Notes: generated by a model not told the origin, from the sequence alone. A stretch of DNA of 64,000 nt from Deltaproteobacteria bacterium YD0425bin51 (GCA_002753225.1 PDZS01000013.1:20167-84166); one strand, 5' to 3'. Shown: positions 35,986 through 50,351, counted from the first letter of the stretch. Translations and numbers: made by a program.

Positions 35986-36207
35986 ATGAAAGTAAAATCA
36001 AATGTAAAATCAGGTTATGATATTCCAGCAGGTCCAATTTGGAACAATGGCGATGCACAGGGTAAATGTCCTAAAACATGCGCTCCATTTGGCGGATGGA
36101 ATGGAAATTGGTTGACCACTATTCCTGGTAGGATGTCTGTATGCGGATGCAATGTTAATCCAAATATTGTAGGATGTAAACCTGGTCCAGGGGCAATTTT
36201 AAGTTAA
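35986..36207 (+). CDS. 73-aa Cys-containing mini-protein with MVL (mannan-binding lectin)-like domain and short N-terminal MKVK..K.G motif
   Basis: RBS AGGAG at 35972. AGPIWNNGDAQGKCPKTCAPFGGWNGNWLTTIPGRMSVCGC resembles the bacterial 'mannan-binding protein/MVL' repeat (GPIW...KCP...W.GQW.T..PG.MSVC), recalled from memory. There is no Sec-type hydrophobic signal. Five Cys. Confidence 0.6.
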   Translation: MKVKSNVKSGYDIPAGPIWNNGDAQGKCPKTCAPFGGWNGNWLTTIPGRMSVCGCNVNPNIVGCKPGPGAILS

Positions 36208-36221
36208 GAATACTATTTACC

Positions 36222-36250
36222 ATGTGCCAACTTTAGAAAAGTTGGCACAT
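36222..36250. other. Perfect 13-bp hairpin just after the mini-protein gene
   Basis: ATGTGCCAACTTT - AGA - AAAGTTGGCACAT. No T-run follows, so it is not a canonical intrinsic terminator. It may be an mRNA processing or stabilising hairpin. Confidence 0.75.
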
Positions 36251-36265
36251 AAGGAAAAAATAATT

Positions 36266-36481
36266 ATGATAAAAACAAAAACTAGCTTAAAAGCAGGCAA
36301 AATTACTATATATGGCTCATCTTCATGTGGATGGTGCCAAAAACAGAAGAATTATTTAAACTCTAAAGGAATAGCCTATACTTTTATTGATTGCTCTACT
36401 AATTCATGCCCTGACTTCGTAAAAGCATTTCCAACTATAGATAATAACGGAATAATATCAGAAGGTTATCAAGAATTATAA
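36266..36481 (+). CDS. Glutaredoxin/NrdH-like thiol-disulfide oxidoreductase with 11-aa N-terminal extension
   Basis: I prefer ATG 36266 (MIKTKTSLKAGKITIYGSSSCGWCQKQKNYLNSKGIAYTFIDC...), because the track's upstream start lies within the hairpin. It has a CGWC active site in a Grx-like beta-alpha-beta context. The stop abuts the ABC gene start (TAAATG). Confidence 0.7.
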   Translation: MIKTKTSLKAGKITIYGSSSCGWCQKQKNYLNSKGIAYTFIDCSTNSCPDFVKAFPTIDNNGIISEGYQEL

Positions 36482-38629
36482 ATGCAGTTTTCTGAACTCT
36501 ATAATTATTCATGGCCTCCTTCAATGCTTGCTGAATCTATTGAAATTTTAGCTAAAAAGGCAAAATATATCTCAAAGCCTGTAGATATACCTCTGCAGTT
36601 TAAAAATATAGAAGCTACAGATAAGGAGACTTTAACTATTTGGATAAGAAAAATAGCTGAACATGTTGGAATAGAAGCTGAACCTGTTGAATTTTTATAT
36701 TCTGATATAGATGATATGTTGTATAAAGCAGCTCCAGCTTTGATTTATTTACCATTACAAGATGAGCAAAGATTTCTAATCTTTTTTAAAGGGGATAAAA
36801 ATAGACTTAAAATTATAACTCCTGAAAATAAAGTAAAGAGTATACCTACAGATTTTGTTTGCGATATTATAACTTATGAAATTGAAGCCCCTTTTCTTGA
36901 ATCTGCAGATAACTTACTCTTAAATGTCGGTGTACCTAAAGAAAGGTTGCATAAAAGCAAAAAATCAATTTTCAAAGAACAACTTGGTTCAAAAAGAATT
37001 CATAACTGCTGGATTTTGAGGCTTTCACCTGGTGGCAGCTTATGGACACAGATAGTTGGAGCAAAAATACCCAAAAATATATTTACAATTATAATGATGA
37101 ATATTATTGGACAAATATTGATGCTGCTTAGCTGGTTTATTATAGGTAAAGGAGCATTCAAAGGCAACTTTGATCCTATGTGGCTTTATGCTTTGACTTT
37201 GCTAATGTTTACTGCTATACCTTTTCAGCTTATTACTACTTGGGCAGGCTCTTTAATGTCAATTAGCGCTGGAGAAATTTTTAAAAAGCGCCTCCTTTTT
37301 GGTATTCTTAAATTAGAACCTGAAGAAATAAAAAATCAAGGTGCAGGACAATTTTTAGGAAGAGTTATGGAGTCTGAATCAGTAGAATCTTTGGCTCTAA
37401 CCGGAGGAATTGTTGCTATAATTTCTATTATTGACTTATTTACAGCAGTAACTGTAATCAAAATGGGTATTGGAGGATGGCTACATACATTTATACTTTT
37501 TGGATGGATAATAATTTCAATATTTTTATATATTCAATATTTTAGAAAAATAAATGATTGGATGAACCTATATCAAGAAATGACAAATGATATGGTAGAG
37601 CGTATGGTAGGACACCGAACAAGGCTTGCTCAGGAAGATGAAAAAGATTGGCACAATGAAGAAGATAAAATTTTATCTAAATATTTCCAATTATCAGAAG
37701 ATTTAGATAAAGTGAATATAAAAATTCATGGAATTGTTTCTCATGGATGGGGAATTGTAGGTTTTTTAGGAATAGCTTATTTAATAATTATTATTCCTCC
37801 TGCATCAAAGTCTTTAATGGCTGTAAGTATAGGAGGAATAATGCTTGCTTCGCAAGCTTTGACTAGTATAGTTGGAACAATGTCGAGTATTGTTAACATT
37901 ACAATTGCATGGAAACAGGTAGGGCCACTTTTTACTGCTGCAAATCGTAAAAAATATAAACCGTCTTCCTTTGTTATTTCAAACAATGATTTAAAAAAGA
38001 AAATAGATGAAGATGATGAGCCTGTTTTAGCTGCTTATGATATTAATTTCAATTATGGAAACTATGGTCGTTCAATAATAACTAATTGTAGTTTAAAGAT
38101 ATCAAAAGGAGATAGACTTTTACTTGAAGGACCATCAGGAGGAGGAAAGTCAACTTTATCTGCTCTTATTGCTGGTTTGAAGGAGCCTGTATCTGGTATT
38201 TTGCTTATGGGAGGTTTGGACAAACAGACAATGGGGATAGATGAATGGAGGAAAAGAATAGTTATTGCTCCTCAATTTCATGAAAATCATGTTTTAATGG
38301 AAACATTTGCATTTAATTTACTTATGGGAAGACGCTGGCCCCCCTCAAATGAGGATTTAGAGCATGCAGAAGAAATATGTCAGGAGCTAGGACTTGGAGA
38401 ACTTTTGCATAGAATGCCTGCTGGAATTCAACAGATGGTTGGAGAAAGTGGCTGGAGATTATCTCATGGTGAAAGGAGCCGTCTTTATATTGCTAGAGCG
38501 CTTCTTCAGGAAGCAGAGATAATTATTTTAGATGAGAGTTTTGCAGCTCTTGATCCTGAAAATCTTTATAGAGCAATGAATTGCGTTTTAAAGCGTGCTT
38601 CTACTCTACTAGTTATTGCGCATCCATAA
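36482..38629 (+). CDS. ABC exporter (N-terminal ~190-aa cytoplasmic domain - 6-TM permease - ATPase), no peptidase active site seen
   Basis: Walker A GPSGGGKST, signature LSHGERSRL, Walker B IIILDESFAALD. In the N-terminal domain (SWPPSMLAESIEILAKKAKYI...) I find no Q/C/H C39 triad. The architecture resembles the non-peptidase partner of two-subunit bacteriocin (NHLP-type) exporters. Confidence 0.85.
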   Translation: MQFSELYNYSWPPSMLAESIEILAKKAKYISKPVDIPLQFKNIEATDKETLTIWIRKIAEHVGIEAEPVEFLYSDIDDMLYKAAPALIYLPLQDEQRFLIFFKGDKNRLKIITPENKVKSIPTDFVCDIITYEIEAPFLESADNLLLNVGVPKERLHKSKKSIFKEQLGSKRIHNCWILRLSPGGSLWTQIVGAKIPKNIFTIIMMNIIGQILMLLSWFIIGKGAFKGNFDPMWLYALTLLMFTAIPFQLITTWAGSLMSISAGEIFKKRLLFGILKLEPEEIKNQGAGQFLGRVMESESVESLALTGGIVAIISIIDLFTAVTVIKMGIGGWLHTFILFGWIIISIFLYIQYFRKINDWMNLYQEMTNDMVERMVGHRTRLAQEDEKDWHNEEDKILSKYFQLSEDLDKVNIKIHGIVSHGWGIVGFLGIAYLIIIIPPASKSLMAVSIGGIMLASQALTSIVGTMSSIVNITIAWKQVGPLFTAANRKKYKPSSFVISNNDLKKKIDEDDEPVLAAYDINFNYGNYGRSIITNCSLKISKGDRLLLEGPSGGGKSTLSALIAGLKEPVSGILLMGGLDKQTMGIDEWRKRIVIAPQFHENHVLMETFAFNLLMGRRWPPSNEDLEHAEEICQELGLGELLHRMPAGIQQMVGESGWRLSHGERSRLYIARALLQEAEIIILDESFAALDPENLYRAMNCVLKRASTLLVIAHP

Positions 38630-38660: not shown

Positions 38661-38894
38661 ATGAATGTATTACCACTTAACTTAATTCTTTCATCTCCTT
38701 TTGAATTACAAGTTGTATATTTTGTATTAAGCTTTATCATTGCACTAATAGGAATAAATCGAAAAATGGGATTTTGGGGTTATCTTTTTTGCTCAATACT
38801 TTTTTCACCTCTAATTGGATTGATGGTAGTTATGGTATCAGCAAAGAATGTATCAGCAAAGAAAGAGGATAATAAAATTAAAAAGCAGGAATGA
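38661..38894 (+). CDS. Small 2-TM membrane protein
   Basis: 77 aa with two hydrophobic helices and a Lys-rich tail. It sits tightly between the ABC and SPFH genes. Confidence 0.4.
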   Translation: MNVLPLNLILSSPFELQVVYFVLSFIIALIGINRKMGFWGYLFCSILFSPLIGLMVVMVSAKNVSAKKEDNKIKKQE

Positions 38895-38897
38895 TAT

Positions 38898-39851
38898 ATG
38901 GCAGATGAATATGTAAAACGTATAGTACCATCATTTAAAAAAATAGAAGATTTTTGGCATAAGTTCGTAAGTACAGGTTTGGTCCCGACCATTATATTTT
39001 TAGTTATTTTTTTAATTTTATTTACAATTTTAGTAAAAAGTATTTTTTATACTATAGCTCCTGGACAAGCAGCTGTGAGATGGAGTCGTTTTCATGGAGG
39101 TACTCAAATAGATTACGTTTATCCAGAAGGTTGGAATTACATAACACCCTGGGATAAAATGTATATATATAACATAAGAATACAAGAAATTTCCCATGAG
39201 ATGAGCGTTTTGAGCAAAAACGGACTTAAAGTGGATCTTAATTTATCCATTAGATTTGCACCTAAATATAAATTGTTAGGACTTTTGCACCAGAAAATTG
39301 GGCCAGATTATGCAAATACAGTAATTATACCTGAAGTTGAAGCAGTATTACGTGAAATTATTGGCACTATGGAGGCAGAAAATATTTATACAACAGGAAG
39401 AGCATTAATAGTTGAAGCAATAAATAAAGCTATTGAGCAGGTTGCTCAGCGGTATATAGATATAGATAAGGTTTTAATAAAAAGTATTCAGCTTCCAGAT
39501 AGCGTTGAACAGGCAATTCGTTATAAAATAGAGCAGAAACATTTAATTGAAGCCACTGAATTTATTGTTGAGAAGGAAAAAAAGGAAGCAGATCGTAAAC
39601 GTGTCGAAGCAGCAGGTCTTAGAGATTACAATAAAATAGTTGAAGATTCGCTTTCAAAAAAAATAATGGACTGGAAAGCAATTCAAGCAACTATGGAGCT
39701 AGCTAAATCTAATAATTCAAAGGTTATTTTAGTAGGGGCAGGAGAAAGAGGGCTCCCAATTTTTGGTGGAATTCAAGTAGATGACTTGACTAAAGAAAGC
39801 TCAAAAGATAATGATAAAGATAATAATAAAAAAGAGATTATTAAAAAGTAG
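38898..39851 (+). CDS. SPFH/Band-7 (prohibitin/HflC-like) membrane protein
   Basis: N-terminal TM helix, then IAPGQAAVRWSRFHGGT...VLSKNGLKVDLNLSIRF...IIPEVEAVLREIIG and a coiled-coil C-terminus. Confidence 0.8.
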   Translation: MADEYVKRIVPSFKKIEDFWHKFVSTGLVPTIIFLVIFLILFTILVKSIFYTIAPGQAAVRWSRFHGGTQIDYVYPEGWNYITPWDKMYIYNIRIQEISHEMSVLSKNGLKVDLNLSIRFAPKYKLLGLLHQKIGPDYANTVIIPEVEAVLREIIGTMEAENIYTTGRALIVEAINKAIEQVAQRYIDIDKVLIKSIQLPDSVEQAIRYKIEQKHLIEATEFIVEKEKKEADRKRVEAAGLRDYNKIVEDSLSKKIMDWKAIQATMELAKSNNSKVILVGAGERGLPIFGGIQVDDLTKESSKDNDKDNNKKEIIKK

Positions 39852-42555
39852 TCTTATATTTTTGATAATTCTTACACTTATAGTTGGCTGTAGATCTAAA
39901 ATAGATGTATCTGAAAAAAGAGCAAAAAGAGCTTTTGAATCAAAAGGGGATATAGTTGTTGCTATAGTTGATTCATCAGTTACACCAACTATGTTTGTTG
40001 AAGGGGTTAAACTAGCTATTGAAGACATAAATTCTTCTGGAGGAGTTTTAGGAAGAAAAATCAAACCCTTGTTCTATGATGACGAGGGAAAATTTGAAAC
40101 AGGACAAAAGATTGCGCATAAGATAGCTGGAAAAGATGATGTTATTGCAGTTATTGGGCACCGTTTTTCTGAGGTTGCAGTCCCTGTATCAATTACATAT
40201 GAAAAGAATGGAATTCTGTTCATTTCGACTGGAGCAACAGATCAGGATTTGATAAGAGACACTGCTGTTTTTACAGTAAGGAATATATCTTCAGATGAAG
40301 ATTTTGGCCGTGAATCAGCAGCTTTTGCCAAACGTAAAAATTTTAAGAAGATTGCAATTTTGTTTGATAGCGAGTCTTCAGGGAAAAGGATTGCAGATCT
40401 TTTTCATGAGCAGGCAGATCGTATTGGAATTAAAATTGTTGCTGAAAAAGCCTATTCTAAATATCAGGATGACTTTAGGTATTTGATTTCAGATTTAACA
40501 AAACAAGCAAAATTTGATGCGATATTTTTAGGAGGAATGCTTCCATCTGCGGCTATTATGATTAAACAGCTCAGAAACTTAGGAGTTGATGTTCCGATTA
40601 TAGGAACAGAGAGGATGGATGCTCCAGAACTTTTAAATATTGCAGGCAAAGCTGCAAATGATACAATTGTTACAACTGTATTTGATCCTAGACTTTCTGA
40701 AAAAAATACTATCTATTTTACAAGCACATTCAAAGAAAAAAATGGTGTTGAACCTGATGCATGGGCAGCACAAGGTTATGATGCAATATCTCTTTTGGCG
40801 TTTGCCATTGACAAAAGCGGATCAACTGTTCCTATAGCATTAAGCTCTACATTAAAGCTTTTAAAAAAATGGAAAAGTGTTTCAGGTTCTTATTCTTTTA
40901 ATCAAAATGGCTCAATTAGCGGTAAAAATATTTTTTTTAAAATCATAAAAAATAGTAATTTTGCAGTATTAGAGCGAGAATTAAGGCAAAATATTAATCC
41001 TTTTGAAGTTATAAAAGATATAACTATAAGGATACCGATTGAAGGTGCAGTTGAAACAGTAGACCCAACTTTTGTACAAGATATGATTTCTATTGACTTG
41101 TCAGAACAATTATTTTTAGGCCTTACTGATTTTAATCCCAAAAACTATGAAGCTTATCCTGAACTTGCTACAAAATGGACAGTAAGCGAAGATGGAAGAA
41201 CATATCGTTTTGAAATGCGTAAGGATGTTTTATGGACTGATGGTACTCCTGTAACTGCCCATGATATAGTGTGGGCAATACAAAGAAATATAAAACCTGA
41301 GACTAATTGTCCTTCTGTATCAATGTTATATATTTTAAAAAATGCCAAAGCAATAAATAAAAAAGAAATGACTGAAATTTCTCAACTTGGTGTAAAAGCT
41401 GATGGAGATTATGCAGTGGAATTCAGCCTTGAAAATCCAGCTTCTTATTTTCCAGCTATGGCTGGATTATGGGTATATAGACCTTTACCAAGAAAAATAA
41501 TTGAAAAATATCAACAAGATTGGACTGATCCTAAAAATATAGTAACAAATGGTTCTTATCGCTTAGCATCACTGGAAAAGGAGATGCTGGTAATTTTAAG
41601 GAAAAATGAATTATATTATGATGCAAATCAAGTTAAGATTCCTGAAGTTCGCTATTATGTTATACCAGACGGTAGCATTGGTTTGTCAATGTATAAAAAT
41701 GACCAATTAGATATAATGGGTGGAAACTATTTGACTATTCCTCCTTCTGAAATTTCCAATCTAAATGCAAATCCTGCATTAGCAAGTGAGCTTTATCAAG
41801 TACCTCAGTTCTGCACTTATGCTTATGGCTTTAACACAAAACTTCCGCCCATGGATAATCCGTTAGTAAGAAAAGCAATATCTGCTGCAATTGATCGATC
41901 TCTGCTGTGCGAAGTTTTATATAGAGGGAATCAGGAGCCTGCTACAACTTTTACTCGTCCTCCTATTTTTGGATCAGTTGATCCAAGAGATGGTATAGGA
42001 ATACACTTTGATTTAAAACTTGCTAAAAAATGGCTTACTGAAGCTGGTTTTCCAGATGGAAAAGGATTTCCAGAAATAAAATTACTTTATAACAGTTCTC
42101 CAAAACATGAAATGGTAGCAAAAGCTATCCAAACATTATTAGATTATTCCTTAAATATTAAAGTCAATATCGTTCCTAAAGAATGGTCAGAATATACAGA
42201 AGGTATGAAACAACCAAACACTAATTATCATATGTTTAGATTTGGATGGTGTAACGATTATCCAGATGCTAATAATTCTTTAAATGAACTTTTTAACCCT
42301 AAAAGTTCAAATAATAATATTGGATGGGAGAATAAAGAATTTACAGATCTCATGGAAAGGGCTCAAAAAGAGACTATTCCAGAAGACAGGAAAAAAACAT
42401 ACAAGAGGGCAGAACAGATTCTTTGTGAAGAAGTCTGCGCAATGATGCCCTTATTTTTTGAAGTTCATAATTTTTTGGTTAAATCAAGAGTCAAAGGCTG
42501 GTATAACTTGGCTTTAGGAGGGCAACATATTCGTGACTGGTATTTTGAAGAATAA
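39811..42555 (+). CDS. Lipoprotein fusing a type-1 periplasmic binding domain (LivJ/ANF-receptor-like) to a family-5 (OppA/DppA-like) solute-binding domain
   Basis: Lipobox LIVGC. The N-terminal half (VVAIVDSS...INSSGGVLGRKIKPLFYDDEG...AVIGHRFSEVA) is LIVBP-like. The C-terminal half (..DLSEQLFLGLTDFNPKN..PELATKWTVSEDGRTYRFEMRKDVLWTDGTPVTAHD..) is SBP_bac_5-like. Confidence 0.8.
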   Translation: MIKIIIKKRLLKSSLIFLIILTLIVGCRSKIDVSEKRAKRAFESKGDIVVAIVDSSVTPTMFVEGVKLAIEDINSSGGVLGRKIKPLFYDDEGKFETGQKIAHKIAGKDDVIAVIGHRFSEVAVPVSITYEKNGILFISTGATDQDLIRDTAVFTVRNISSDEDFGRESAAFAKRKNFKKIAILFDSESSGKRIADLFHEQADRIGIKIVAEKAYSKYQDDFRYLISDLTKQAKFDAIFLGGMLPSAAIMIKQLRNLGVDVPIIGTERMDAPELLNIAGKAANDTIVTTVFDPRLSEKNTIYFTSTFKEKNGVEPDAWAAQGYDAISLLAFAIDKSGSTVPIALSSTLKLLKKWKSVSGSYSFNQNGSISGKNIFFKIIKNSNFAVLERELRQNINPFEVIKDITIRIPIEGAVETVDPTFVQDMISIDLSEQLFLGLTDFNPKNYEAYPELATKWTVSEDGRTYRFEMRKDVLWTDGTPVTAHDIVWAIQRNIKPETNCPSVSMLYILKNAKAINKKEMTEISQLGVKADGDYAVEFSLENPASYFPAMAGLWVYRPLPRKIIEKYQQDWTDPKNIVTNGSYRLASLEKEMLVILRKNELYYDANQVKIPEVRYYVIPDGSIGLSMYKNDQLDIMGGNYLTIPPSEISNLNANPALASELYQVPQFCTYAYGFNTKLPPMDNPLVRKAISAAIDRSLLCEVLYRGNQEPATTFTRPPIFGSVDPRDGIGIHFDLKLAKKWLTEAGFPDGKGFPEIKLLYNSSPKHEMVAKAIQTLLDYSLNIKVNIVPKEWSEYTEGMKQPNTNYHMFRFGWCNDYPDANNSLNELFNPKSSNNNIGWENKEFTDLMERAQKETIPEDRKKTYKRAEQILCEEVCAMMPLFFEVHNFLVKSRVKGWYNLALGGQHIRDWYFEE

Positions 42556-44761
42556 AAAAATTTATGTAACTATTGCGTTAATTATTTTAGCATTATTAGG
42601 TTTAGTAATATATTTTTCATTTATTATAAAAAAAGATTATTACATTGCTGTTGCAGGTCCTATGAGTGGACAGCGTAAATATGATGGTGAAGCAATGTTA
42701 AAAGGGATTAATCTGTGTCTTGATGAGATAAACAAAAAGGGTGGAATTAATGGAAGAAAGATACTTGCTCGTATTTTTGATGATAAAGGACAAACAAGAA
42801 TAGCAATGAATATTGCTTCTCAAATTTCAGAAGATAAAGATATCTTACTAACTCTTGGGCACTTTGACAGCTCAACTTCATATTCTGCTGGAAGTATTTA
42901 TCGTAAAACAGGTGTACCTGCAATCACTGCATCTGCAACTGCTGTTGAAGTAACTCGCGAAAATGATTTTTATTTCAGGGTCATCACAAACAATGCTTTT
43001 GAAGGAAGCTTTATTGCTAATTACTTGAAAACATTAGGTAAACAATCAGCAACCATCATTTATAATAAAGATACCTATGGGACATCTCTTGTGGAAAGTT
43101 TTGAAAAAACGGCAAAAACAATTGGTATTGCTGTCAAAAAAAAATGGGGTTTTGACTCAGAAAGTGAAACAATAAATGAGGATATGTCTAAAATTATCAC
43201 TGAACTTAGAGCAATAAGTGATCCTGGTATGCTATTTTTGGCAGTTCATGGGAATGAAGCCCCTAAAATTATCAAATCATTAAAATTTTCAGGTGCTGAT
43301 TTTTCAATTTTTGGACCTGATAGTTTTGCAACTGTTTCATTTATTAGTGGATTCAAAGAATTTCCCGAGGAACAGACAAAACCAGGATACTATACAGATG
43401 GAATTTATTGTGCTTCTCCATTTATGGCAGAAATTGCAAATGAAAAAGCACAGAAATTTAGAAAATTATATATGCATAAATACTTAGAGGAGCCATTATG
43501 GACATCAGCCTGTTATTATGATGCAGCTCTTGTTGCAGTTGAAGCAATTAAATCTTCAGACATTGGAAATAGTGATCAAATTCGAAAATCGAGAAGAGAA
43601 ATCAGAAGTTCTCTTGCAAATATGTATAGGCAAGAAGATGCTTTAATAGGAGTCACTGGGCCAATATACTTTGATAAAAATGGAGATGTAAACCGTCCAA
43701 TGGCAGTAGGAAAATACAAAAAACAAATATTTATGCCAGCATACTTACAGTATCAATTAATTCCAGATCCTCCAGATAGTGAGGCAACCTTAAAAAAAGT
43801 TCTGAAAGGTGATATTTTTGTTATTGAAGGCAAAAATATGCATAAATACAAAGTAGTCTATACAGGTATTGATGTTAACGAGATTTTTAACCTGGATATT
43901 AAAAAATCTACTTACAGCATGGATTTTTATATTTGGTTCAGATTTGAAGGAGAATTGGATGATAAAGATATCAATTTTGTAAATGCGGCAAGTCCTATTG
44001 ATATAGGTAAACCTATTTTTGAAGAACAGAAAGATGGCATTACTTTGCGTGCATATCGTGTTAAAGGGAATTTTAAAGGTAATTTTGACTTTAGCTCATA
44101 TCCTTTTGACAAGCATAATTTAGAGATAAAATTTCATCATAAAAAAGATACTCGTGAACAGTTAATATATGTTGTTGATATTTTGGCACTTCCTGATTCA
44201 GTTTTAAAAGCAAAACATCATGAGATAGATTTTAAAAGCTCTATTGAGTGGAAAATTATAGATAAATTTTATTATCAAGATATTAAAACAGATAATTCAA
44301 CTCGTGGTAAGTTAGATTCTTTAAATGAACAGAATAAATATTCTTATTCCATGTTTAATCTTTCAATTTTAATAAAAAAGACTGGAATAGGTGAATTCTT
44401 AAGAAATATAATCCCTATGATTGTATTAATTTTGATTTTATATATTATCTATTTTATACCTAATGAAAAATGGTGGGTGCACTTAGTTATAATACTTACA
44501 GTACTTATCACAAACATATTCTACCATGTAAAACTATTAAATTATTTACCCATTAATTACACGAGTTGCATGGAATATTTATTTTTTTCTTTATATTTAC
44601 TTATAATTATGAAATTGCTGTTACTCTCAATTATATTTATTCATTTCAAAAAAAATAATATAAAAAGATTAAACTTAATTCAAAATGTAGGAAAAATATT
44701 GTTTCTGCCAGTTGCTTTTGGAATGATTTTAATAACCCTGTATTTAACAGGTCGCTTTTAG
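42533..44761 (+). CDS. Type-1 periplasmic binding domain fused to a pentameric ligand-gated ion channel (Cys-loop-superfamily-like) module
   Basis: N-terminal TM/signal anchor, then a LIVBP-like domain (IAVAGPMSGQRKYDGEAMLKGINLCLDEINKKGGINGRKILARIFDD..). A beta-sandwich ECD-like region follows (VVYTGIDVNEIFNLDIKKSTYSMDFYIWFRF ... FDFSSYPFDKHNLEIKF). It ends in four TM helices with pLGIC-like landmarks (NIIPMIVLILILYIIYFIP; LPINYTSCMEYLFF). Confidence 0.7.
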   Translation: MTGILKNKKIYVTIALIILALLGLVIYFSFIIKKDYYIAVAGPMSGQRKYDGEAMLKGINLCLDEINKKGGINGRKILARIFDDKGQTRIAMNIASQISEDKDILLTLGHFDSSTSYSAGSIYRKTGVPAITASATAVEVTRENDFYFRVITNNAFEGSFIANYLKTLGKQSATIIYNKDTYGTSLVESFEKTAKTIGIAVKKKWGFDSESETINEDMSKIITELRAISDPGMLFLAVHGNEAPKIIKSLKFSGADFSIFGPDSFATVSFISGFKEFPEEQTKPGYYTDGIYCASPFMAEIANEKAQKFRKLYMHKYLEEPLWTSACYYDAALVAVEAIKSSDIGNSDQIRKSRREIRSSLANMYRQEDALIGVTGPIYFDKNGDVNRPMAVGKYKKQIFMPAYLQYQLIPDPPDSEATLKKVLKGDIFVIEGKNMHKYKVVYTGIDVNEIFNLDIKKSTYSMDFYIWFRFEGELDDKDINFVNAASPIDIGKPIFEEQKDGITLRAYRVKGNFKGNFDFSSYPFDKHNLEIKFHHKKDTREQLIYVVDILALPDSVLKAKHHEIDFKSSIEWKIIDKFYYQDIKTDNSTRGKLDSLNEQNKYSYSMFNLSILIKKTGIGEFLRNIIPMIVLILILYIIYFIPNEKWWVHLVIILTVLITNIFYHVKLLNYLPINYTSCMEYLFFSLYLLIIMKLLLLSIIFIHFKKNNIKRLNLIQNVGKILFLPVAFGMILITLYLTGRF

Positions 44762-44805: not shown

Positions 44806-45327
44806 ATGGAACAAGAAAAAACAAACGAGGAAGTAAAAGTTGAAACCCAGGAACTAAAAGAAGTGTCTCAAGAACAAATTGATAAACTTATCAGAAATAA
44901 TGTTTTGGTTTCAATGGGATTTGGGCTAATTCCCATCCCACTTGTTGATTTTGCTGCTATTACAGGTGTTCAGCTTAACATGATAAGAATACTTGCAAAA
45001 ATGTACGAAGTTCCATTTTCTAAAGACAAAGGTAAACATATTATCGCATCACTTATTGGTGGTACTATTCCTGCATCTTTTGGTGGAATTTTAACGAGTT
45101 TAGTCAAAGTTGTACCAATTATTGGACAAACAACAGGCGCATTGGTTATGCCAGTACTTGCAGGTGGAACAACTTATGCGATAGGTAAAGTTATGGTACA
45201 ACATTTTGCATCTGGTGGGACATTCCTAAATTTTAATCCTGAACAAGTAAAAGAATATTATGCTGATATGCTTTCAAAAGGTAAAGAAGTTGCTAGTAAA
45301 ATCAAATCTGGTGCTATGACACAATAA
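44806..45327 (+). CDS. DUF697 (YcjF-like) membrane-associated protein
   Basis: GLIPIPLVDFAAITGVQLNMIRILAKMYEVPFSK...GTTYAIGKVMVQHF is the typical DUF697 pattern. Confidence 0.65.
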   Translation: MEQEKTNEEVKVETQELKEVSQEQIDKLIRNNVLVSMGFGLIPIPLVDFAAITGVQLNMIRILAKMYEVPFSKDKGKHIIASLIGGTIPASFGGILTSLVKVVPIIGQTTGALVMPVLAGGTTYAIGKVMVQHFASGGTFLNFNPEQVKEYYADMLSKGKEVASKIKSGAMTQ

Positions 45328-46856: not shown

Positions 46857-47393
46857 TTGGCAAGTCCATTTGTTCGAACAATGCGTTCGTTTCATGCGGA
46901 TAGCTATTATGCATCATTCATAGGGATTCTGATAAGTATGTTTTTTATGACTCTATGGTTTATATGGTTCTTTACAGCCAATGTGTCAATTTACAAAAAA
47001 AGCACTTATGCTGTACTTACCTCCCAAGAAGGAATTAAAACTGATTTTCCATCTAGTCCTTTTGGTATTGTAAATACAATGGAAGAAAAGAGGGGGAAAG
47101 TTGTTATATCTGAATTTCCGATTGACGCTAAAGATATAATTAAAAGAGGACAAAACGCTAGTTTTATAGTTGAAGATGCTGTAACTCATAAAAGGAGAAA
47201 AGTACCTGCTATTGTAACAAAGCTAGCTAGTCAATTCCCACAAAAAAAAATAGCAGTAGAGTTAATAGCTTTTATGGATAAAAAAATATTCAAAGAAATT
47301 AAAGCTGGTACTACAGGTCAAGTTAATATTGAAGTTAATAGAGAAACTCCAGCAAAAATGGTAATGAGAATGTCAGGATTATTTATTAATTAA
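46857..47393 (+). CDS. 178-aa mini HlyD/membrane-fusion-like protein (TM anchor + beta-barrel-like end, no coiled-coil hairpin)
   Basis: The N-terminus (FVRTMRSFHADSYYASFIGILISMFFMTLWFIWFF) resembles the cytoplasmic tail/TM anchor of bacteriocin-exporter MFPs. The C-terminus (GTTGQVNIEVNRETPAKMVMRMSGLF) resembles the terminal beta strands of HlyD-family proteins. It is less than half the usual length. TTG start with RBS GGGAGG. Confidence 0.45.
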   Translation: MASPFVRTMRSFHADSYYASFIGILISMFFMTLWFIWFFTANVSIYKKSTYAVLTSQEGIKTDFPSSPFGIVNTMEEKRGKVVISEFPIDAKDIIKRGQNASFIVEDAVTHKRRKVPAIVTKLASQFPQKKIAVELIAFMDKKIFKEIKAGTTGQVNIEVNRETPAKMVMRMSGLFIN

Positions 47394-47490: not shown

Positions 47491-47550
47491 ATGAAAGTTA
47501 AAACAAAAGTTAAAGCAGGCGGTTTTAATTCAATGATTCAAGGCATGTAA
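47491..47550 (+). CDS. 19-codon micro-ORF MKVKTKVKAGGFNSMIQGM (candidate Gly-Gly-type precursor or leader peptide)
   Basis: Not in the ORF track because it is below the length cutoff. AAGGAG at 47475-47480 lies 10 nt before the ATG. The ORF sits 78 nt upstream of a C39-peptidase ABC exporter. Its N-terminus repeats the MKVK..K.G motif of the ORFs at 35986 and 36266. A strong hairpin plus T-run follows. Confidence 0.5.
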   Translation: MKVKTKVKAGGFNSMIQGM

Positions 47551-47627: not shown

Positions 47628-50351
47628 ATGTTATTTGATACTATTCCAAAAAGAAAATTTTTAGTACCTGAAGTTATTCAGACATCTGCAATGGATTGTG
47701 GTCCTGCCACATTAAAAGCTATGCTTGAGGGATTTGACATTTCTGCAAGTTATGGACGCCTTAGAGAAGCTTGCCAAACAGATGTTGATGGAACCAGCAT
47801 TGATAGTATTGAAGATGTTGCTGTTCAATTAGGACTTGAAGCCCAGCAGACCATGCTCCCTCTTGATAATTTGCTTTTGCCGGTAAGTGCAGCATTACCA
47901 GCTATTGTAGTAACTCGTCTTCCAAATGGATTTACACATTTTGTTATTGTCTGGTCTGTTCACGGTTCTTTTGTTCAAATCATGGATCCTGGCACAGGAA
48001 GGCGTTGGTTGACTAAAAAGAACTTTTTAAAAGATGTTTATATTCACAGACAGACTGTTTCTGTTGAAGATTGGCATAATTGGGCAAAGTCAGATGGATT
48101 TTTAAAGCCTCTATGTGTAAGAATGGAAAATCTGAAAATAGGAGGCTTCATTATTGATGAACTGATTGAAACAGCAAAAAATGGAGAAAGATGGCAAACA
48201 CTTGCAGCATTAGATGCTTCAGTAAGAATGGTTGATTCAATCGTAAATTCAGGTGGATTTAGGAAAGGCTCTGAAGCCTCAAAAGCTTTGCAGCAAATAT
48301 TTACAAATGAAATAACTATGCAGCATGATCAGGAAAGCATGGTTCCTATAAATTACTGGTCCATAGAACCATCACCAAATGAAAATGAAAGCGATCAGGT
48401 AATTTTAAAAGGTGCTGTAACTATAACCGTTAGCGGCAAAAGAGAAGTTAAAGATTCAAAAGAAATATCTAATGAGGAACAGATAAAACCCTTATCTCCT
48501 GAATTAGTTGCAGCATTAGAAGAGGAGTCTGTTAAACCTGAAAAGGAACTTATAAAAGCTTTTTTAGAGGATGGATGGCTTGTCATTGTCATGCTTATTT
48601 CTGGGCTTGCTTTAGCTACATTTGCAGTAACTGTTGAAGCTATTTTATTTAGAGGTTTATTAGAAATTACATCAAACTTCCAATTAATTGGACAAAAAGT
48701 TTCTGCAATGGGATTACTTATAGCTTTTTTATGTGCTGTTGTTGCTCTTTCTTTGCCTATGGAATCAATAAAATACCGCATTGGAAGGCGGATTGAAACC
48801 CGCCTTAGGATAGCTTTTTTAGAAAAGATCCCCCGCCTTGGAGATAAGTATTTTCATAGCCGTCTTACATCAGATATGACTCATAGGGCCTATGAACTAC
48901 GTCAATTAAGAATGTACCCCAATTTAGCAGTTATGTTTATACGAGTATGTTTTGAAATTTTAATTACAACTATTTGTATTATTTGGATCACACCATCAAG
49001 CGCTCATATTGCTATTATTGCAACTCTTGTTGTAATTGGTGTTTCTTTGATGGCACAGCCTCTACTGAACGAGCAAAGCCTTCGTCTTCAAACATTAATT
49101 GGAGCAATAAGCAGATTTTATCTAGACTCATTACTAGGAATAGTGCCAATTAGAACTCACAGGGCAGAATTATCTGTTAGAAGGGAACATGAAGGTTTAA
49201 TGGTAGAATGGGCAAGAGCAGGTATTTCTCTATACAAAGCTGATTTATTAATTATTGGAATAGAAGCTTTAGTGGGTGCTTTTTTTACAGTATGGATTCT
49301 ATACCATTTTGTGTCAAATTACAGTGATCCAAAAGGCATATTATTATTAATGTACTGGACAATGAAATTACCTCAACTTGGAAAGGTTTTGGCCTCTCTT
49401 GCCCAGCAATATCCAATGATGCGCAATATGCTACTTAGACTTTTAGAGCCTTTAACTTCAAGTGAAGAAAGTGCAATGTATAAAGAAGATAAAGATGACG
49501 AACCTTATGATTACACTCAAATTATTTCAGAAGAAGGTATATCTCTATATCTTCAAGATGTTAATGTGCAAGCCGGCGGACAGACTATTTTAAAAGAAAT
49601 AAATTTAACAATTAATTCAAATGAGCATGTAGCTATTGTTGGTCCATCTGGTGCTGGAAAATCAAGCTTTGTTGGATTATTTCTTGGTTGGCATAGACCT
49701 AATGAAGGTAAAATATTTATTGATGGAAAACGGTTGAATGGTTCCATGTTAAATAAAATTCGTAGTCAAACATCGTGGGTAGATCCAGAAGTTCAACTTT
49801 GGAATAAGACTCTTATAGAAAATCTACGTTATGGCTCTCAAGATATTGAAACATCAAATTTAAGTCAAGTTATAGAGCTTGCTGATTTATTAAATATGTT
49901 GGAAAAATTCCCAAATGGACTTCAAACTGTTCTAGGAGAAGGTGGGGGATTAGTTTCAGGAGGAGAAGGTCAAAGAGTTAGGCTTGGAAGAGCAATGCTT
50001 AGAGATAAAATAAGACTTGTCATAATGGATGAACCATTTCGTGGTCTTGATCGGTCAACTCGAAGAGAGCTTTTAAAAAAAGCTAGAGCCTTCTGGAAAA
50101 AATCAACATTGATTTTTATTTCCCACGATGTAAGTGAAACTCTTTTATTTGACAGAGTATTAGTAATAGAAAATGGACAAATAGTTGAAGATAATACGCC
50201 AAAAATTTTATCAGAAAAAAAAGATTCTCGTTATAGTATGCTTTTAAAAGCTGATGAAGCTGTTAGAAATACTTTATGGGCCAGCGCTGAATGGAGAAGA
50301 TTATGGCTCAAAGATGGAAAACTCGATGAAAATGAAAATAATAATGATTAA
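47628..50351 (+). CDS. Peptidase-C39-containing ABC exporter (PCAT), 907 aa
   Basis: C39 domain with an intact triad context (VIQTSAMDCGPATLKAML ... FTHFVIVW ... IMDPGTG). Then a ~170-aa extra region, a 6-TM permease and an ATPase (GPSGAGKSS, VSGGEGQRVRL, LVIMDEPFRGLD). Confidence 0.9.
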   Translation: MLFDTIPKRKFLVPEVIQTSAMDCGPATLKAMLEGFDISASYGRLREACQTDVDGTSIDSIEDVAVQLGLEAQQTMLPLDNLLLPVSAALPAIVVTRLPNGFTHFVIVWSVHGSFVQIMDPGTGRRWLTKKNFLKDVYIHRQTVSVEDWHNWAKSDGFLKPLCVRMENLKIGGFIIDELIETAKNGERWQTLAALDASVRMVDSIVNSGGFRKGSEASKALQQIFTNEITMQHDQESMVPINYWSIEPSPNENESDQVILKGAVTITVSGKREVKDSKEISNEEQIKPLSPELVAALEEESVKPEKELIKAFLEDGWLVIVMLISGLALATFAVTVEAILFRGLLEITSNFQLIGQKVSAMGLLIAFLCAVVALSLPMESIKYRIGRRIETRLRIAFLEKIPRLGDKYFHSRLTSDMTHRAYELRQLRMYPNLAVMFIRVCFEILITTICIIWITPSSAHIAIIATLVVIGVSLMAQPLLNEQSLRLQTLIGAISRFYLDSLLGIVPIRTHRAELSVRREHEGLMVEWARAGISLYKADLLIIGIEALVGAFFTVWILYHFVSNYSDPKGILLLMYWTMKLPQLGKVLASLAQQYPMMRNMLLRLLEPLTSSEESAMYKEDKDDEPYDYTQIISEEGISLYLQDVNVQAGGQTILKEINLTINSNEHVAIVGPSGAGKSSFVGLFLGWHRPNEGKIFIDGKRLNGSMLNKIRSQTSWVDPEVQLWNKTLIENLRYGSQDIETSNLSQVIELADLLNMLEKFPNGLQTVLGEGGGLVSGGEGQRVRLGRAMLRDKIRLVIMDEPFRGLDRSTRRELLKKARAFWKKSTLIFISHDVSETLLFDRVLVIENGQIVEDNTPKILSEKKDSRYSMLLKADEAVRNTLWASAEWRRLWLKDGKLDENENNND

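What the first reader, a model, noticed from the sequence alone, without database searches (positions are those of the whole stretch)
42533..44761. Periplasmic-binding-domain::pentameric ligand-gated ion channel fusion embedded in the export locus
Seen in sequence: after a LIVBP/ANF-receptor-type binding domain comes a ~210-aa region with pLGIC extracellular-domain hallmarks (VVYTGIDVNEIFNLDIKKSTYSMDFYIWFRF; FDFSSYPFDKHNLEIKF, i.e. the FPFD-type 'loop 7' motif without the Cys pair). Four TM helices follow, arranged M1-M2-M3 ... M4 (NIIPMIVLIL..YFIP; LPINYTSCMEYLFF). Established knowledge: prokaryotic pLGICs (GLIC, ELIC, DeCLIC) exist, and comparative genomics has noted N-terminal extra domains, including PBP-type ones. 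Ligands and physiological roles are unknown for almost all of them. A pLGIC sitting inside a peptide-export operon, right after a PBP1+OppA-like lipoprotein, suggests a concrete ligand hypothesis: the exported peptide or its product. That would amount to ionotropic autocrine sensing.
Basis: partly seen in the sequence, partly recalled or inferred. Interest (0 to 1): 0.7.

Follow-up and report, generated by a model that had tools for sequence, protein, structure and literature searches.

The report
Binding-protein-fused pentameric channel, peptide-sensor module
This gene encodes a bacterial relative of animal neurotransmitter-gated ion channels with an amino-acid-binding domain fused to its front; the fusion type was noted in 2005 but has never been studied, and its conserved neighbour (a peptide-binding protein) suggests that peptides or amino acids are the signal.

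Summary
ORF 42533-44761 (+, 742 aa) encodes an N-terminal membrane helix, a LivJ-like type I periplasmic binding domain, a beta-sandwich domain and four TM helices. Pfam and NCBIfam pLGIC models miss it (E 0.05 and 0.025). Other tests do not: phmmer against PDB hits ELIC-type chains (1.6e-9), a family profile hits ELIC and GLIC (1e-16 to 1e-22), and the AlphaFold2 model's top 50 Foldseek matches are all pLGIC subunits. The YPFD Pro-loop and an M2 pore pattern are present.

The architecture is not new: Tasneem et al. (2005) described PBP-I::pLGIC fusions. The family is large (1,712 cluster representatives), is publicly named "ABC transporter substrate-binding protein", and I found no experimental study of it.

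The conserved context is not the PCAT or secretin: 0 of 83 homologue loci carry one, and 0 of 4 PCAT-orthologue loci carry the channel. It is a second binding protein, here an OppA-like lipoprotein, plus an SPFH protein. Non-orthologous peptide-export ABC transporters lie directly upstream in 7 of 12 informative loci.

Best reading: a peptide/amino-acid-gated channel complex. Autocrine sensing of the locally exported FNSMIQGM peptide stays possible but rests on adjacency in one genome. New member of a known kind; moderate interest.

The parts
42533..44761 (+). PBP1::pLGIC fusion gene (742 aa), the finding itself
   Evidence: ORF; Pfam; PDB sequence hits; models; Foldseek
42548..42622 (+). N-terminal TM helix (residues 6-30), probably an uncleaved signal anchor, giving 5 TM helices per subunit
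   Evidence: AlphaFold2 helix at 6-30; a KNKK n-region followed by a hydrophobic stretch of more than 20 residues, read from the sequence. Cleavage was not tested.
42638..43762 (+). Type I periplasmic binding domain (LivJ/LIVBP/ANF-receptor type), residues about 36-410
   Evidence: Peripla_BP_6 6e-37; PDB 4gnr and 3hut at 5e-45 with the family profile; Foldseek LivJ TM 0.88. In the LivJ alignment, S79 and T102 are kept, E226 becomes D263 and Y202 becomes H239 (the residue roles are recalled from memory).
43814..44380 (+). pLGIC extracellular beta-sandwich domain, residues 428-616
44099..44110 (+). Pro-loop (Cys-loop equivalent) motif Y523-P524-F525-D526, without the Cys pair
   Evidence: P524 is invariant and F525 nearly invariant in 49 family members; aligned to FPFD of ELIC
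44387..44755 (+). Channel domain M1-M4 (619-641, 644-671, 679-706, 710-741). M2 pore face: H0', T6', I9', F13', V16'.
   Evidence: M2 register from the alignment to the ELIC-GABA-A chimera; family composition
39811..42555 (+). Lipoprotein with PBP1 + SBP_bac_5 (OppA-like) domains. Its stop overlaps the channel start. It is the conserved partner gene.
   Evidence: Pfam; NCBIfam OppA 7.8e-71; lipobox LIVGC; conserved next to the channel gene, nearly always directly upstream, in 29 of 79 loci plus L082-L085
38898..39851 (+). SPFH/Band 7 protein, a conserved member of the module in Desulfobacterales
   Evidence: Pfam 2e-24; present in 13 related loci and in L082
38661..38894 (+). 77-aa small membrane protein conserved upstream of Band7
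   Evidence: Homologous 68-aa ORF at the same position in L082
36482..38629 (+). ABC exporter (715 aa; N-terminal 200-aa domain of unknown type + MsbA-like TMD + NBD). It flanks the module.
   Evidence: A 55% orthologue lies directly upstream of Band7-SBP5-pLGIC in L015. A 52% orthologue lies next to the PCAT orthologue in L088.
44806..45327 (+). DUF697 membrane protein, 44 nt downstream of the channel gene; a recurrent neighbour
   Evidence: Pfam; near the module in L014, L032 and L037 and near a PCAT orthologue in L086
45338..46834 (+). Secretin (context only; not conserved with the channel)
   Evidence: Pfam and NCBIfam; 0 related loci
46857..47393 (+). 178-aa accessory protein of the PCAT (context only)
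   Evidence: A homologue precedes every PCAT_907 orthologue examined
47491..47550 (+). 19-aa ORF MKVKTKVKAGG|FNSMIQGM, a candidate double-glycine-leader precursor
   Evidence: neither expression nor cleavage was tested
47628..50351 (+). C39 peptidase-containing ABC exporter (PCAT, 907 aa) (context only)
   Evidence: Pfam; NCBIfam; family

Best explanation
The gene encodes a subunit of a prokaryotic 'Pro-loop' pentameric ligand-gated ion channel. Its periplasmic side carries a fused LivJ-like type I binding domain, and the subunit is anchored by an extra N-terminal TM helix.

It belongs to a large family whose architecture was noted in 2005 and for which I found no functional or structural study.

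It is made from a translationally coupled gene string: small membrane protein, SPFH/Band7 protein, lipoprotein (PBP1 + OppA-like peptide-binding domain), then the channel.

The most likely mechanism has three steps:
1. The inner-membrane pentamer uses its own PBP1 domains, together with the tethered OppA-like partner, to capture a periplasmic amino acid or oligopeptide.
2. Domain closure is passed through the beta-sandwich domain and the Pro-loop/M2-M3 interface to open the M2 pore.
3. Chemical information is thereby converted into an ion flux or a change in membrane potential.

What is shown: the domain identities, the fold, the motifs and the conserved gene partnership.

What is inferred: pentamer formation, gating by the binding domains, the ligand class, and ion selectivity. 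The family lacks the -1' Glu of cation-selective channels and mostly has (G/S/A/P)-x-R at -2' to 0', which hints at a pore that is not cation-selective.

In this genome the module sits between the two ABC components of a leader-peptide export system. The sensed peptide may therefore be self-produced, but that step rests on one genome's gene order plus a looser trend.
For: - pLGIC identity. Architecture and model.
- YPFD motif, with P524 invariant and F525 nearly invariant.
- M2 profile over 237 sequences: 0' R 68%, 9' L/I/V 73%, 6' small or polar, 13' F.
- PBP1 is LivJ-like, and the alpha-amino-acid contact positions are largely retained.
- The N-terminal PBP1 part aligns in register with the channel part in every homologue locus not cut at its 5' end (76 of 79).
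- A second binding protein lies beside or is fused to the channel in 43 of 79 loci: SBP_bac_5 in 29, C-terminal SBP_bac_1 fusions in 10, NMT1_3 in 3, SBP_bac_8 in 1. The same holds in 4 of 4 further close homologues.
- In three Beggiatoaceae loci the order is SBP5, channel, OPT oligopeptide transporter.
- Band7 is present in 13 loci and in L082.
- Gene overlaps of 41 and 23 nt in the window.
- Peptide-export ABC transporters lie directly upstream in 7 of 12 informative loci.
Against: - No functional data exist for any PBP1-pLGIC.
- The Pfam and NCBIfam pLGIC models are sub-threshold for this sequence.
- The window protein has an atypical pore entrance (W-2', V-1', H0') and Lys instead of the family's pre-M1 Arg.
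- 36 of 79 loci show no adjacent second binding protein, so the partner is not obligatory.
- The partner's class varies between lineages, so 'peptide' holds only for the SBP5-linked subfamily.
- SBP_bac_5 proteins also bind nickel, opines and other ligands.
- PBP1 domains usually act as dimers, and how they would fit fivefold symmetry is unknown.
- No pentamer model could be computed.
Confidence: 0.6

Rival explanations
1. Autocrine ionotropic sensing. The PCAT/ABC_715 system exports the GG-leader peptide, whose core is FNSMIQGM. The OppA-like lipoprotein and/or PBP1 domain captures it, and the channel opens, giving a quorum-type or filament-coordination signal.
For: - In the window the module lies between ABC_715 and the PCAT. 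These two are neighbours of each other in Parabeggiatoa L088.
- A 19-aa GG-leader ORF precedes the PCAT. An 8-mer fits the ligand size of OppA-type proteins (established knowledge).
- Non-orthologous peptide exporters abut the module in six other Desulfobacterales loci, and a type I secretion system abuts the Azospirillum relative.
Against: - 0 of 83 homologue loci have a C39 PCAT or a secretin.
- 0 of 4 PCAT_907-orthologue loci have the channel module within 10 kb. In Desulfonema magnum the two are far apart.
- The closest long-contig homologue (L082, 46% identity) has the four-gene module and no exporter.
- The leader motif was found nowhere else.
- The tiny ORF is unvalidated.
Confidence: 0.17
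2. Environmental nutrient or chemical sensor unrelated to the exporters. The channel reports external amino acids or peptides (as Tasneem et al. proposed for chemotaxis-like behaviour), and the exporter genes are neighbours by chance or by insertion.
For: - Core module without any exporter in L082, L005, L006 and L037.
- Association with the OPT peptide importer in Beggiatoaceae.
- The class of partner binding protein varies across lineages.
- Proposal in PMC549065.
Against: Three different exporter families recur next to the module or its relative. Pure chance explains this poorly, though it may reflect shared envelope or peptide-metabolism islands.
Confidence: 0.2
3. It is what public databases call it: an ABC-importer substrate-binding protein for branched-chain amino acids. 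On this reading the C-terminal half is only a membrane anchor.
For: Source names. The PBP1 domain is truly LivJ-like.
Against: - No importer permease or ATPase genes accompany it in the window.
- The C-terminal 320 aa is a complete, conserved pLGIC ECD + M1-M4 with a conserved pore pattern. That is far more than an anchor needs.
Confidence: 0.02

Closest known systems
PBP-I::ART-LGIC fusions of Magnetospirillum magnetotacticum and Bradyrhizobium japonicum (Tasneem, Iyer, Jakobsson and Aravind 2005, PMC549065)
   Same: The same domain order: type I periplasmic binding domain, then pLGIC ligand-binding domain, then a 4-TM channel. That paper also noted operons pairing bacterial pLGICs with stand-alone binding proteins.
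   Different: Those were recognised only computationally in two alphaproteobacteria. The present protein belongs to a much larger set found in Desulfobacterales, Beggiatoaceae, cyanobacteria and Chloroflexota. Its partners are an OppA-like (SBP_bac_5) protein and an SPFH protein, which the passages I retrieved from that paper do not mention; there the stand-alone partners were PBP-II or Cache.
ELIC (Erwinia/Dickeya) and GLIC (Gloeobacter), the structurally solved prokaryotic pLGICs
   Same: Homologous over ECD beta-strands, Pro-loop and M1-M4 (profile E 1e-16 to 1e-22; fold). Very short M3-M4 loop and no Cys pair.
   Different: - ELIC and GLIC have no N-terminal binding domain and no extra TM helix.
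- ELIC carries Glu at -1' and GLIC at -2', whereas this family does not.
- Their agonists are amines (ELIC) or protons (GLIC).
DeCLIC (Desulfofustis), described in 2022 as the only multidomain pLGIC with a structure (PMC9897478, PMC12664993)
   Same: A prokaryotic pLGIC with an extra periplasmic N-terminal domain that modulates gating; also from a deltaproteobacterium.
   Different: The DeCLIC N-terminal domain consists of two lobes described as homologous to calcium-binding regulatory domains. It is not a PBP fold, and the channel responds to Ca2+ depletion.
Eukaryotic ionotropic glutamate receptors (NMDA/AMPA)
   Same: An analogy in logic only: a type I PBP amino-terminal domain plus a second binding-protein-type ligand domain controlling an ion pore (discussed in PMC549065 and PMC12664993).
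   Different: The pore is unrelated (tetrameric, P-loop type) and the symmetry is different. No homology exists in the channel part.
Binding-protein-dependent bacterial sensors (for example LuxP/LuxQ and TorT/TorS; review PMC8050422)
   Same: A periplasmic binding protein encoded next to a membrane receptor and acting as its ligand-presenting subunit.
   Different: Those receptors are kinases or chemoreceptors. Here the output would be an ion channel.

Membership tests
Pentameric ligand-gated ion channel (Cys-loop/Pro-loop) superfamily | Sequence homology spanning both the extracellular domain and the M1-M4 channel domain | tested here: met
   phmmer against PDB: ELIC-type chains at 1.6e-9 to 6e-7 over query 67-323. 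Family profile: ELIC 1e-17 to 1e-22 and GLIC about 5e-16 over profile 479-738 and chain 75-316.
Pentameric ligand-gated ion channel (Cys-loop/Pro-loop) superfamily | Recognition by curated family HMMs (Pfam PF02931/PF02932, NCBIfam LGIC_1) at their thresholds | tested here: inconclusive
   This sequence: Neur_chan_LBD 13.5 bits against 26, no Neur_chan_memb hit, LGIC_1 E 0.025. Relatives: 10 of 20 hit Neur_chan_memb (best 2e-10), and the L010 relative passes the gathering score (32.5 against 28.1 bits). This is an operational detector, not a biological defining feature.
Pentameric ligand-gated ion channel (Cys-loop/Pro-loop) superfamily | Fold: a beta-sandwich ECD followed directly by a four-helix bundle | tested here: met
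   AlphaFold2 models at pLDDT 88.5 and 81.1. The Foldseek top 50 are all pLGIC subunits, E 2.5e-15, about 330 aligned columns, TM 0.5-0.6.
Pentameric ligand-gated ion channel (Cys-loop/Pro-loop) superfamily | Loop 7 motif [FY]-P-x-D (Pro-loop), and a conserved Pro in M1 | tested here: met
   YPFD at 523-526, with P524 invariant and F525 nearly invariant. NIIPMIV in M1 aligns to the M1 Pro of the ELIC chimera. A basic pre-M1 residue is present as Lys; the family has Arg.
Pentameric ligand-gated ion channel (Cys-loop/Pro-loop) superfamily | M2 with a hydrophobic 9' gate and small or polar 2'/6' positions | tested here: met
   Window: T6', I9', F13', V16'. Family: 9' L/I/V 73%, 6' S/G/A/T/N.
Pentameric ligand-gated ion channel (Cys-loop/Pro-loop) superfamily | Assembly as a pentamer around a central pore | not testable with these tools
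   Only monomer prediction was available.
Pentameric ligand-gated ion channel (Cys-loop/Pro-loop) superfamily | Ligand-dependent ion conduction | not testable with these tools
   Needs electrophysiology or flux assays.
PBP-I::pLGIC fusion subfamily (Tasneem et al. 2005) | A type I periplasmic binding domain fused N-terminally to the pLGIC core in one polypeptide | tested here: met
   The same architecture is seen in 76 of 76 untruncated homologue loci and in most of the best 150 representatives, judged by length and match position.
Type I periplasmic binding proteins (LIVBP/ANF-receptor type) | Family HMM above threshold and a two-lobed PBP fold | tested here: met
   Peripla_BP_6 128.5 bits against 31.7 and ANF_receptor 78.7 against 25.4. 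Foldseek LivJ 4gnr TMt 0.88.
ABC-importer substrate-binding protein (the public annotation) | A soluble or lipid-anchored binding protein encoded with importer permease and ATPase genes | tested here: not met
   The protein carries a 4-TM channel domain. Neighbouring genes include no importer permease, and the two ABC proteins have exporter-type TMD-NBD architecture.
Exported-peptide autocrine signalling cassette (PCAT + GG-leader peptide + cognate receptor) | A GG-leader precursor gene next to a C39 PCAT | tested here: met
   MKVKTKVKAGG|FNSMIQGM at 47491-47550, 77 nt upstream of the PCAT. Expression was not tested.
Exported-peptide autocrine signalling cassette (PCAT + GG-leader peptide + cognate receptor) | Conserved co-occurrence of receptor and exporter genes | tested here: not met
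   0 of 83 channel loci have a PCAT or secretin, and 0 of 4 PCAT-orthologue loci have the channel. Other peptide-export ABC types do co-occur in 7 of 12 Band7-type loci.
Exported-peptide autocrine signalling cassette (PCAT + GG-leader peptide + cognate receptor) | The receptor binds the exported peptide | not testable with these tools
   Needs binding or gating assays.

The most novel reading that the evidence does not exclude
The channel, its OppA-like lipoprotein and the SPFH protein form a peptide-gated ionotropic receptor for a self-exported peptide: the 8-mer FNSMIQGM, or another product of the flanking PCAT/ABC_715 exporter. That would be a bacterial counterpart of a peptide-transmitter synapse, used by filamentous or multicellular bacteria to turn a secreted signal into an electrical response.
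Probability: 0.12. Interest if true: 0.85.

Novelty: new member of a known kind. Interest (0 to 1): 0.5.

Why it matters
Almost no prokaryotic pLGIC has a known physiological ligand or role. According to a 2022 paper (PMC9897478), the only multidomain member with a structure was DeCLIC.

This locus, together with the comparative data gathered here, gives the PBP1-fused family a concrete and testable set of ligand candidates: amino acids, oligopeptides, and here a defined 8-mer. It also gives a defined partner set: an OppA-like lipoprotein, an SPFH protein and a small membrane protein.

Two further points follow:
- Hundreds of such channels are hidden in databases under the name 'ABC transporter substrate-binding protein'.
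- The family is concentrated in filamentous, giant or multicellular bacteria (Desulfonema, Beggiatoaceae, Thiomargarita, cable bacteria, Moorena, Anaerolineae, magnetotactic multicellular prokaryotes), where electrical or ionic coordination between cells is an open question.

Tried and rejected
- Word-indexed homologue search with the C-terminal half alone found nothing. The exhaustive HMMER search and a profile query were needed instead.
- Foldseek with the full-length model returned only PBP-domain hits in the top 50. I therefore modelled and searched the C-terminal half separately.
- The afdb50 fold library was unavailable.
- The promoter/terminator scan showed no enrichment over shuffles and says nothing about operon limits.
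- A search for the MKVK..G leader motif in 80 fetched loci (the 79 genome homologue loci and the Azospirillum locus) found none. A GG-peptide scan upstream of the four PCAT orthologues gave nothing convincing.
- I tested whether the N-terminal 180 aa of ABC_715 is a degenerate C39-like domain. The BLASTP E-value is 0.077 against the PCAT C39 region, aligned in register but not significant, and Pfam gives nothing. This is left unresolved.
- The 178-aa protein could not be placed in the HlyD family or any other Pfam family. It is nevertheless a conserved PCAT companion.
- No paralogous pLGIC exists elsewhere in the window.
- Literature searches linking pLGICs with magnetotactic multicellular bacteria or giant sulfur bacteria found nothing.
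- I considered and rejected 'substrate-binding protein of an ABC importer' and 'peptide-conducting pore'. The latter is rejected because pLGIC pores are too narrow for peptides (established knowledge).
Full report
**1. The observation**

The ORF at 42533-44761 (+ strand, GTG start, 742 aa) is real. An AGGAGG lies 8 nt upstream of the GTG, and the start overlaps the stop of the upstream gene by 23 nt.

Pfam places a type I periplasmic binding domain at residues 37-396 (Peripla_BP_6, E 6e-37; ANF_receptor, E 6e-22).

Neur_chan_LBD scores 13.5 bits against a gathering score of 26 (E 0.05). Neur_chan_memb does not hit. NCBIfam LGIC_1 gives E 0.025.

**2. It is a pLGIC**

- Sequence, single query. 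phmmer of the C-terminal 329 aa against all PDB chains gives ELIC and ELIC-GABA-A chimeras at E 1.6e-9 to 6e-7. The alignment runs from the middle of the extracellular domain through FPFD/YPFD to the end of M4.
- Family size. An exhaustive HMMER search of 1.84 billion cluster representatives found 1,712 relatives of the C-terminal half (242 below 1e-30). Most are 720-770 aa with the match at about 415-735, which is the same architecture.
- Sequence, family profile. A profile of 49 full-length members hits LivJ-type binding proteins with its first half (5e-45). With positions 479-738 it hits ELIC (1e-17 to 1e-22) and GLIC (about 5e-16).
- Fold. AlphaFold2 on that alignment gives pLDDT 88.5 and pTM 0.84. 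The model has a TM helix at 6-30, a PBP fold at 36-410, a beta-sandwich at 428-616 and helices at 619-641, 644-671, 679-706 and 710-741, with a three-residue M3-M4 link. A separate model of the C-terminal 318 aa (pLDDT 81) returns only pLGIC subunits among the 50 best Foldseek matches in the PDB (GABA-A, GLIC, chimeras). The best E-value is 2.5e-15, with about 330 aligned columns and TM-scores of 0.5-0.6.
- Motifs. P524 of the YPFD motif is invariant and F525 nearly invariant in the family.
- Pfam on relatives. Ten of 20 family members hit Neur_chan_memb on their own (best 2e-10), and no other Pfam family appears.
- Pore. I set the M2 register from the alignment to the GABA-A alpha1 M2 in the ELIC chimera. 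The window protein then has H0', T6', I9', F13' and V16'. Over 237 family sequences the pattern is 0' Arg 68%, 9' Leu/Ile/Val 73%, 6' small or polar, and 13' Phe 50%. The family has no Glu at -1' and mostly (G/S/A/P)-x-R at -2' to 0'. By the classical rule (established knowledge) this points away from cation selectivity. That is an inference only, and the window protein's W-V-H entrance is atypical.

Pentamer formation and conduction could not be tested.

**3. The binding domain**

The PBP1 domain is closest to branched-chain amino-acid binding proteins (4gnr, 3hut, 4mlc, LivJ 1z15).

In the ungapped alignment to LivJ, the positions I recall as contacting the ligand's alpha-carboxylate and alpha-ammonium groups are largely kept. 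Ser79 aligns to Ser. Thr102 aligns to Thr, within ITASATA against ITPAATA. Glu226 aligns to Asp263. Tyr202 aligns to His239. The residue roles come from memory of the LivJ literature and were not checked here.

This fits an amino acid, or the free terminus of a peptide, as the ligand.

**4. What is already known**

Tasneem, Iyer, Jakobsson and Aravind (Genome Biol 2005, PMC549065) described exactly this architecture. They reported a PBP-I domain fused N-terminally to the bacterial pLGIC core in Magnetospirillum magnetotacticum and Bradyrhizobium japonicum. They also reported operons pairing bacterial pLGICs with stand-alone PBP-II or Cache proteins, and they proposed a chemoreceptor role.

Papers from 2022 and 2025 cite the extra N-terminal domains of prokaryotic pLGICs as poorly understood. 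The 2022 paper calls DeCLIC, whose N-terminal domain is not a PBP, the only such channel with a structure.

I found no experimental work on a PBP1-pLGIC. So the fusion is not new, but it is uncharacterised.

In public databases the family members are named 'ABC transporter substrate-binding protein' or 'branched-chain amino acid transport system substrate-binding protein'. Precomputed Pfam lists only the PBP families for most of them. PF02932 appears in about 11 of the 120 listed, and PF02931 in none.

**5. Source and phyletic spread**

The window is part of contig JADGCY010000013.1 of assembly GCA_015228685.1. A 99% identical partial protein is labelled Desulfobacterales bacterium.

A scan of one genome per species (185,579 species) found 277 relatives. 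The best 79 loci, sorted by their record titles, are:

| Group | Loci |
|---|---|
| Desulfobacterales and other deltaproteobacteria (Desulfonema, Desulfatirhabdium, Electrothrix) | about 23 |
| Beggiatoaceae and other Thiotrichales (Parabeggiatoa, Thiomargarita, Thioploca, Marithrix) | about 19 |
| Mostly filamentous cyanobacteria (Moorena, Okeania, Pleurocapsa, Spirulina) | about 20 |
| Chloroflexota (Anaerolineae, Caldilinea) | about 10 |
| Others | a few |

Candidatus Magnetomorum also carries it. This spread matches the gene sharing reported among filamentous gliding bacteria (PMC6390638). That paper's main text does not mention this gene.

**6. Conserved context (forward test)**

I compared all window neighbours with the 79 loci by tblastn and clustered all ORFs. 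The N-terminal PBP1 part aligns in register with the channel part in all 76 loci not cut at the 5' end.

Conserved neighbours:
- An SBP_bac_5 (OppA-like) gene lies next to the channel gene, nearly always directly upstream, in 29 loci. It is either stand-alone (about 550-600 aa) or fused to its own PBP1 domain (about 910 aa, as in the window).
- An SPFH/Band7 gene lies upstream of that in 13 loci.
- A small membrane protein precedes Band7 (window 38661-38894; L082).
- DUF697 is nearby in 3 loci.

The window's secretin, the 178-aa gene and the C39 PCAT have no counterpart in any of these loci. The only 'PCAT' hits are cross-matches of ABC ATPase domains.

Neighbourhoods of four further close homologues agree:
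- L082 (46% identity) has only small protein, Band7, PBP1/SBP5 and channel.
- Three loci (a metagenome contig, Ca. Magnetomorum, and an NCBI assembly named only 'Candidatus Ma...' in the truncated source label) have SBP5, channel, a TPS exoprotein and two ShlB genes.

Other lineages replace the partner:
- About ten roughly 1,200-aa variants carry a C-terminal SBP_bac_1 domain after M4, which should be periplasmic (for L010).
- Three loci have an NMT1_3-type binding protein directly upstream, and one has an SBP_bac_8.

In total, 43 of 79 loci have a second binding protein in cis or in trans.

In three Beggiatoaceae loci the order is SBP5, channel, OPT oligopeptide transporter.

Tandem channel paralogues occur in about 14 loci, which leaves room for heteromers. 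The window has a single copy.

**7. The exporter question**

Directly upstream of Band7 there is an exporter-type ABC protein in 7 of 12 loci where that position can be read:
- ABC_715 in the window, and its 55% orthologue in L015.
- In L011, L012, L014, L018 and L044, a 544-aa protein that passes the NCBIfam 'cyclic peptide export ABC transporter' cut-off (TIGR01194, 356.5 against 286.2 bits). It is only 22% identical to ABC_715.

A distant Azospirillum relative abuts an ABC-HlyD-TolC system. That protein has PBP1, a full pLGIC-type ECD without YPFD, and an MscS channel domain.

So different peptide or protein exporters recur beside these sensors. This is mild comparative support for a functional link.

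**8. Reverse test**

PCAT_907 belongs to a large family of roughly 900-aa PCATs (50-61% identity) in the same kinds of bacteria. In four orthologue loci a homologue of the window's 178-aa protein always precedes it. In Parabeggiatoa a 52% orthologue of ABC_715 lies 1.7 kb away.

None of these loci has a PBP1-pLGIC, SBP5, Band7 or secretin gene within 10 kb. In the complete Desulfonema magnum genome the PCAT lies at 0.64 Mb and the channel genes at 0.30, 2.93 and 7.93 Mb.

PCAT_907, the 178-aa protein and ABC_715 therefore form an export set in their own right. In the window, the block of small protein, Band7, SBP5, channel, DUF697 and secretin lies between its two ABC components.

Two small ORFs share an N-terminal motif: MKVKSNVKSG on a 73-aa MVL-lectin-domain protein at 35986-36207, and MKVKTKVKAGG on the 19-aa ORF at 47491-47550. 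These bracket the whole cluster. That argues it works as one unit in this genome, but the motif was found in no other locus.

**9. Interpretation**

The part that is shown is the protein's identity and its conserved partners. The most economical mechanism is a periplasmic ligand-capture complex gating a pentameric pore. The complex would combine the channel-borne PBP1 with a second, interchangeable binding protein, here an OppA-like lipoprotein, and possibly an SPFH scaffold. For this subfamily the ligand class is most likely an oligopeptide and/or amino acid.

It is supported by gene order in one genome plus a loose exporter trend, and it is contradicted by the lack of PCAT co-occurrence in both directions. 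I give it about 0.15.

**10. Verdict**

- Observation: confirmed.
- Interpretation: partly supported.
- Novelty: a new member of a known but uncharacterised kind.
- Interest: moderate (0.5). The locus offers a concrete route to finding the ligand of a prokaryotic pLGIC family and exposes a systematic annotation gap, but nothing here is categorically new.

Noticed in passing
window 35986-36207 (+) and 36224-36481 (+): A 73-aa protein with an MVL mannan-binding lectin domain (Pfam 1.9e-14). Its N-terminus MKVKSNVKSG resembles the leader of the 19-aa GG peptide 11 kb downstream. A glutaredoxin-like gene and the ABC_715 exporter follow it. It may be a second cargo of the same export system.
   Followed up: partly
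window 46857-47393, 47491-47550, 47628-50351; loci L086-L089: PCAT_907 represents a large family of roughly 900-aa C39 PCATs with about 190 aa between the C39 and transmembrane regions that match no Pfam family. A conserved 175-195-aa protein (MxxPFSRTxRS...) with no Pfam family always precedes them. In Parabeggiatoa it pairs with an ABC_715 orthologue. A secretin as neighbour, in place of a TolC, is seen only in the window.
   Followed up: partly
L001 7860-10928 (Azospirillum sp. B510 plasmid pAB510b): A 1,022-aa protein with PBP1, a complete pLGIC-type extracellular domain (hhalign 99.8%, YPFD motif lost) and an MscS channel domain. A pentameric-channel sensor domain is thus joined to a different channel family, usually heptameric (from memory). 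It lies next to ABC-HlyD-TolC. Eight more Azospirillum replicons carry it.
   Followed up: partly
L010 8717-12283 and cluster 'LONG' (L026, L028, L029, L030, L036, L039, L043, L046, L074); P0179, P0053, P0052: Family variants carry a further domain after M4: SBP_bac_1 (about 1,200 aa), cNMP_binding, or Bmp (PF02608). The cNMP_binding fusion is odd because the end of M4 should be periplasmic.
   Followed up: partly
L003, L005, L008, L009, L011, L012, L014, L015, L018, L031, L032, L037, L044, L054: Tandem pairs of PBP1-pLGIC paralogues. Desulfonema magnum has three separate loci. This suggests heteromeric channels or a diversified receptor repertoire.
   Followed up: no
L002-L080 record titles: The family is concentrated in filamentous, giant or multicellular bacteria of four phyla: Desulfonema, cable bacteria, Beggiatoaceae, Thiomargarita, Moorena/Okeania, Anaerolineae, and Ca. 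Magnetomorum. This fits the gene exchange reported among filamentous gliding bacteria.
   Followed up: partly
L083, L084, L085, L004; window 34141-35781: In the loci related to magnetotactic multicellular prokaryotes, a roughly 1,800-1,950-aa two-partner-secretion exoprotein and two ShlB/FhaC transporters follow the channel. The window also has a ShlB-type gene 700 bp upstream of the cluster.
   Followed up: no
window 50348-52462 (-); L015 11256-13337 (-): A hybrid histidine kinase (HisKA-HATPase-REC-REC-Hpt) lies convergent to the cluster in both the window and the most syntenic locus, L015. It may be the downstream or parallel signalling partner.
   Followed up: no
L011 806-2701, L012 488-2350: A beta-lactamase/D-aminopeptidase-family serine hydrolase (631 aa) precedes the cyclic-peptide ABC exporter upstream of the Band7-SBP5-pLGIC module. 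This is another peptide-related gene in the neighbourhood.
   Followed up: no
window 36482-37081: The N-terminal 200 aa of ABC_715 match no Pfam family. They align in register, but not significantly (E 0.077), with the C39 domain of the PCAT, and there is no Cys at the catalytic position. This may be a degenerate C39-like cargo-binding domain.
   Followed up: partly
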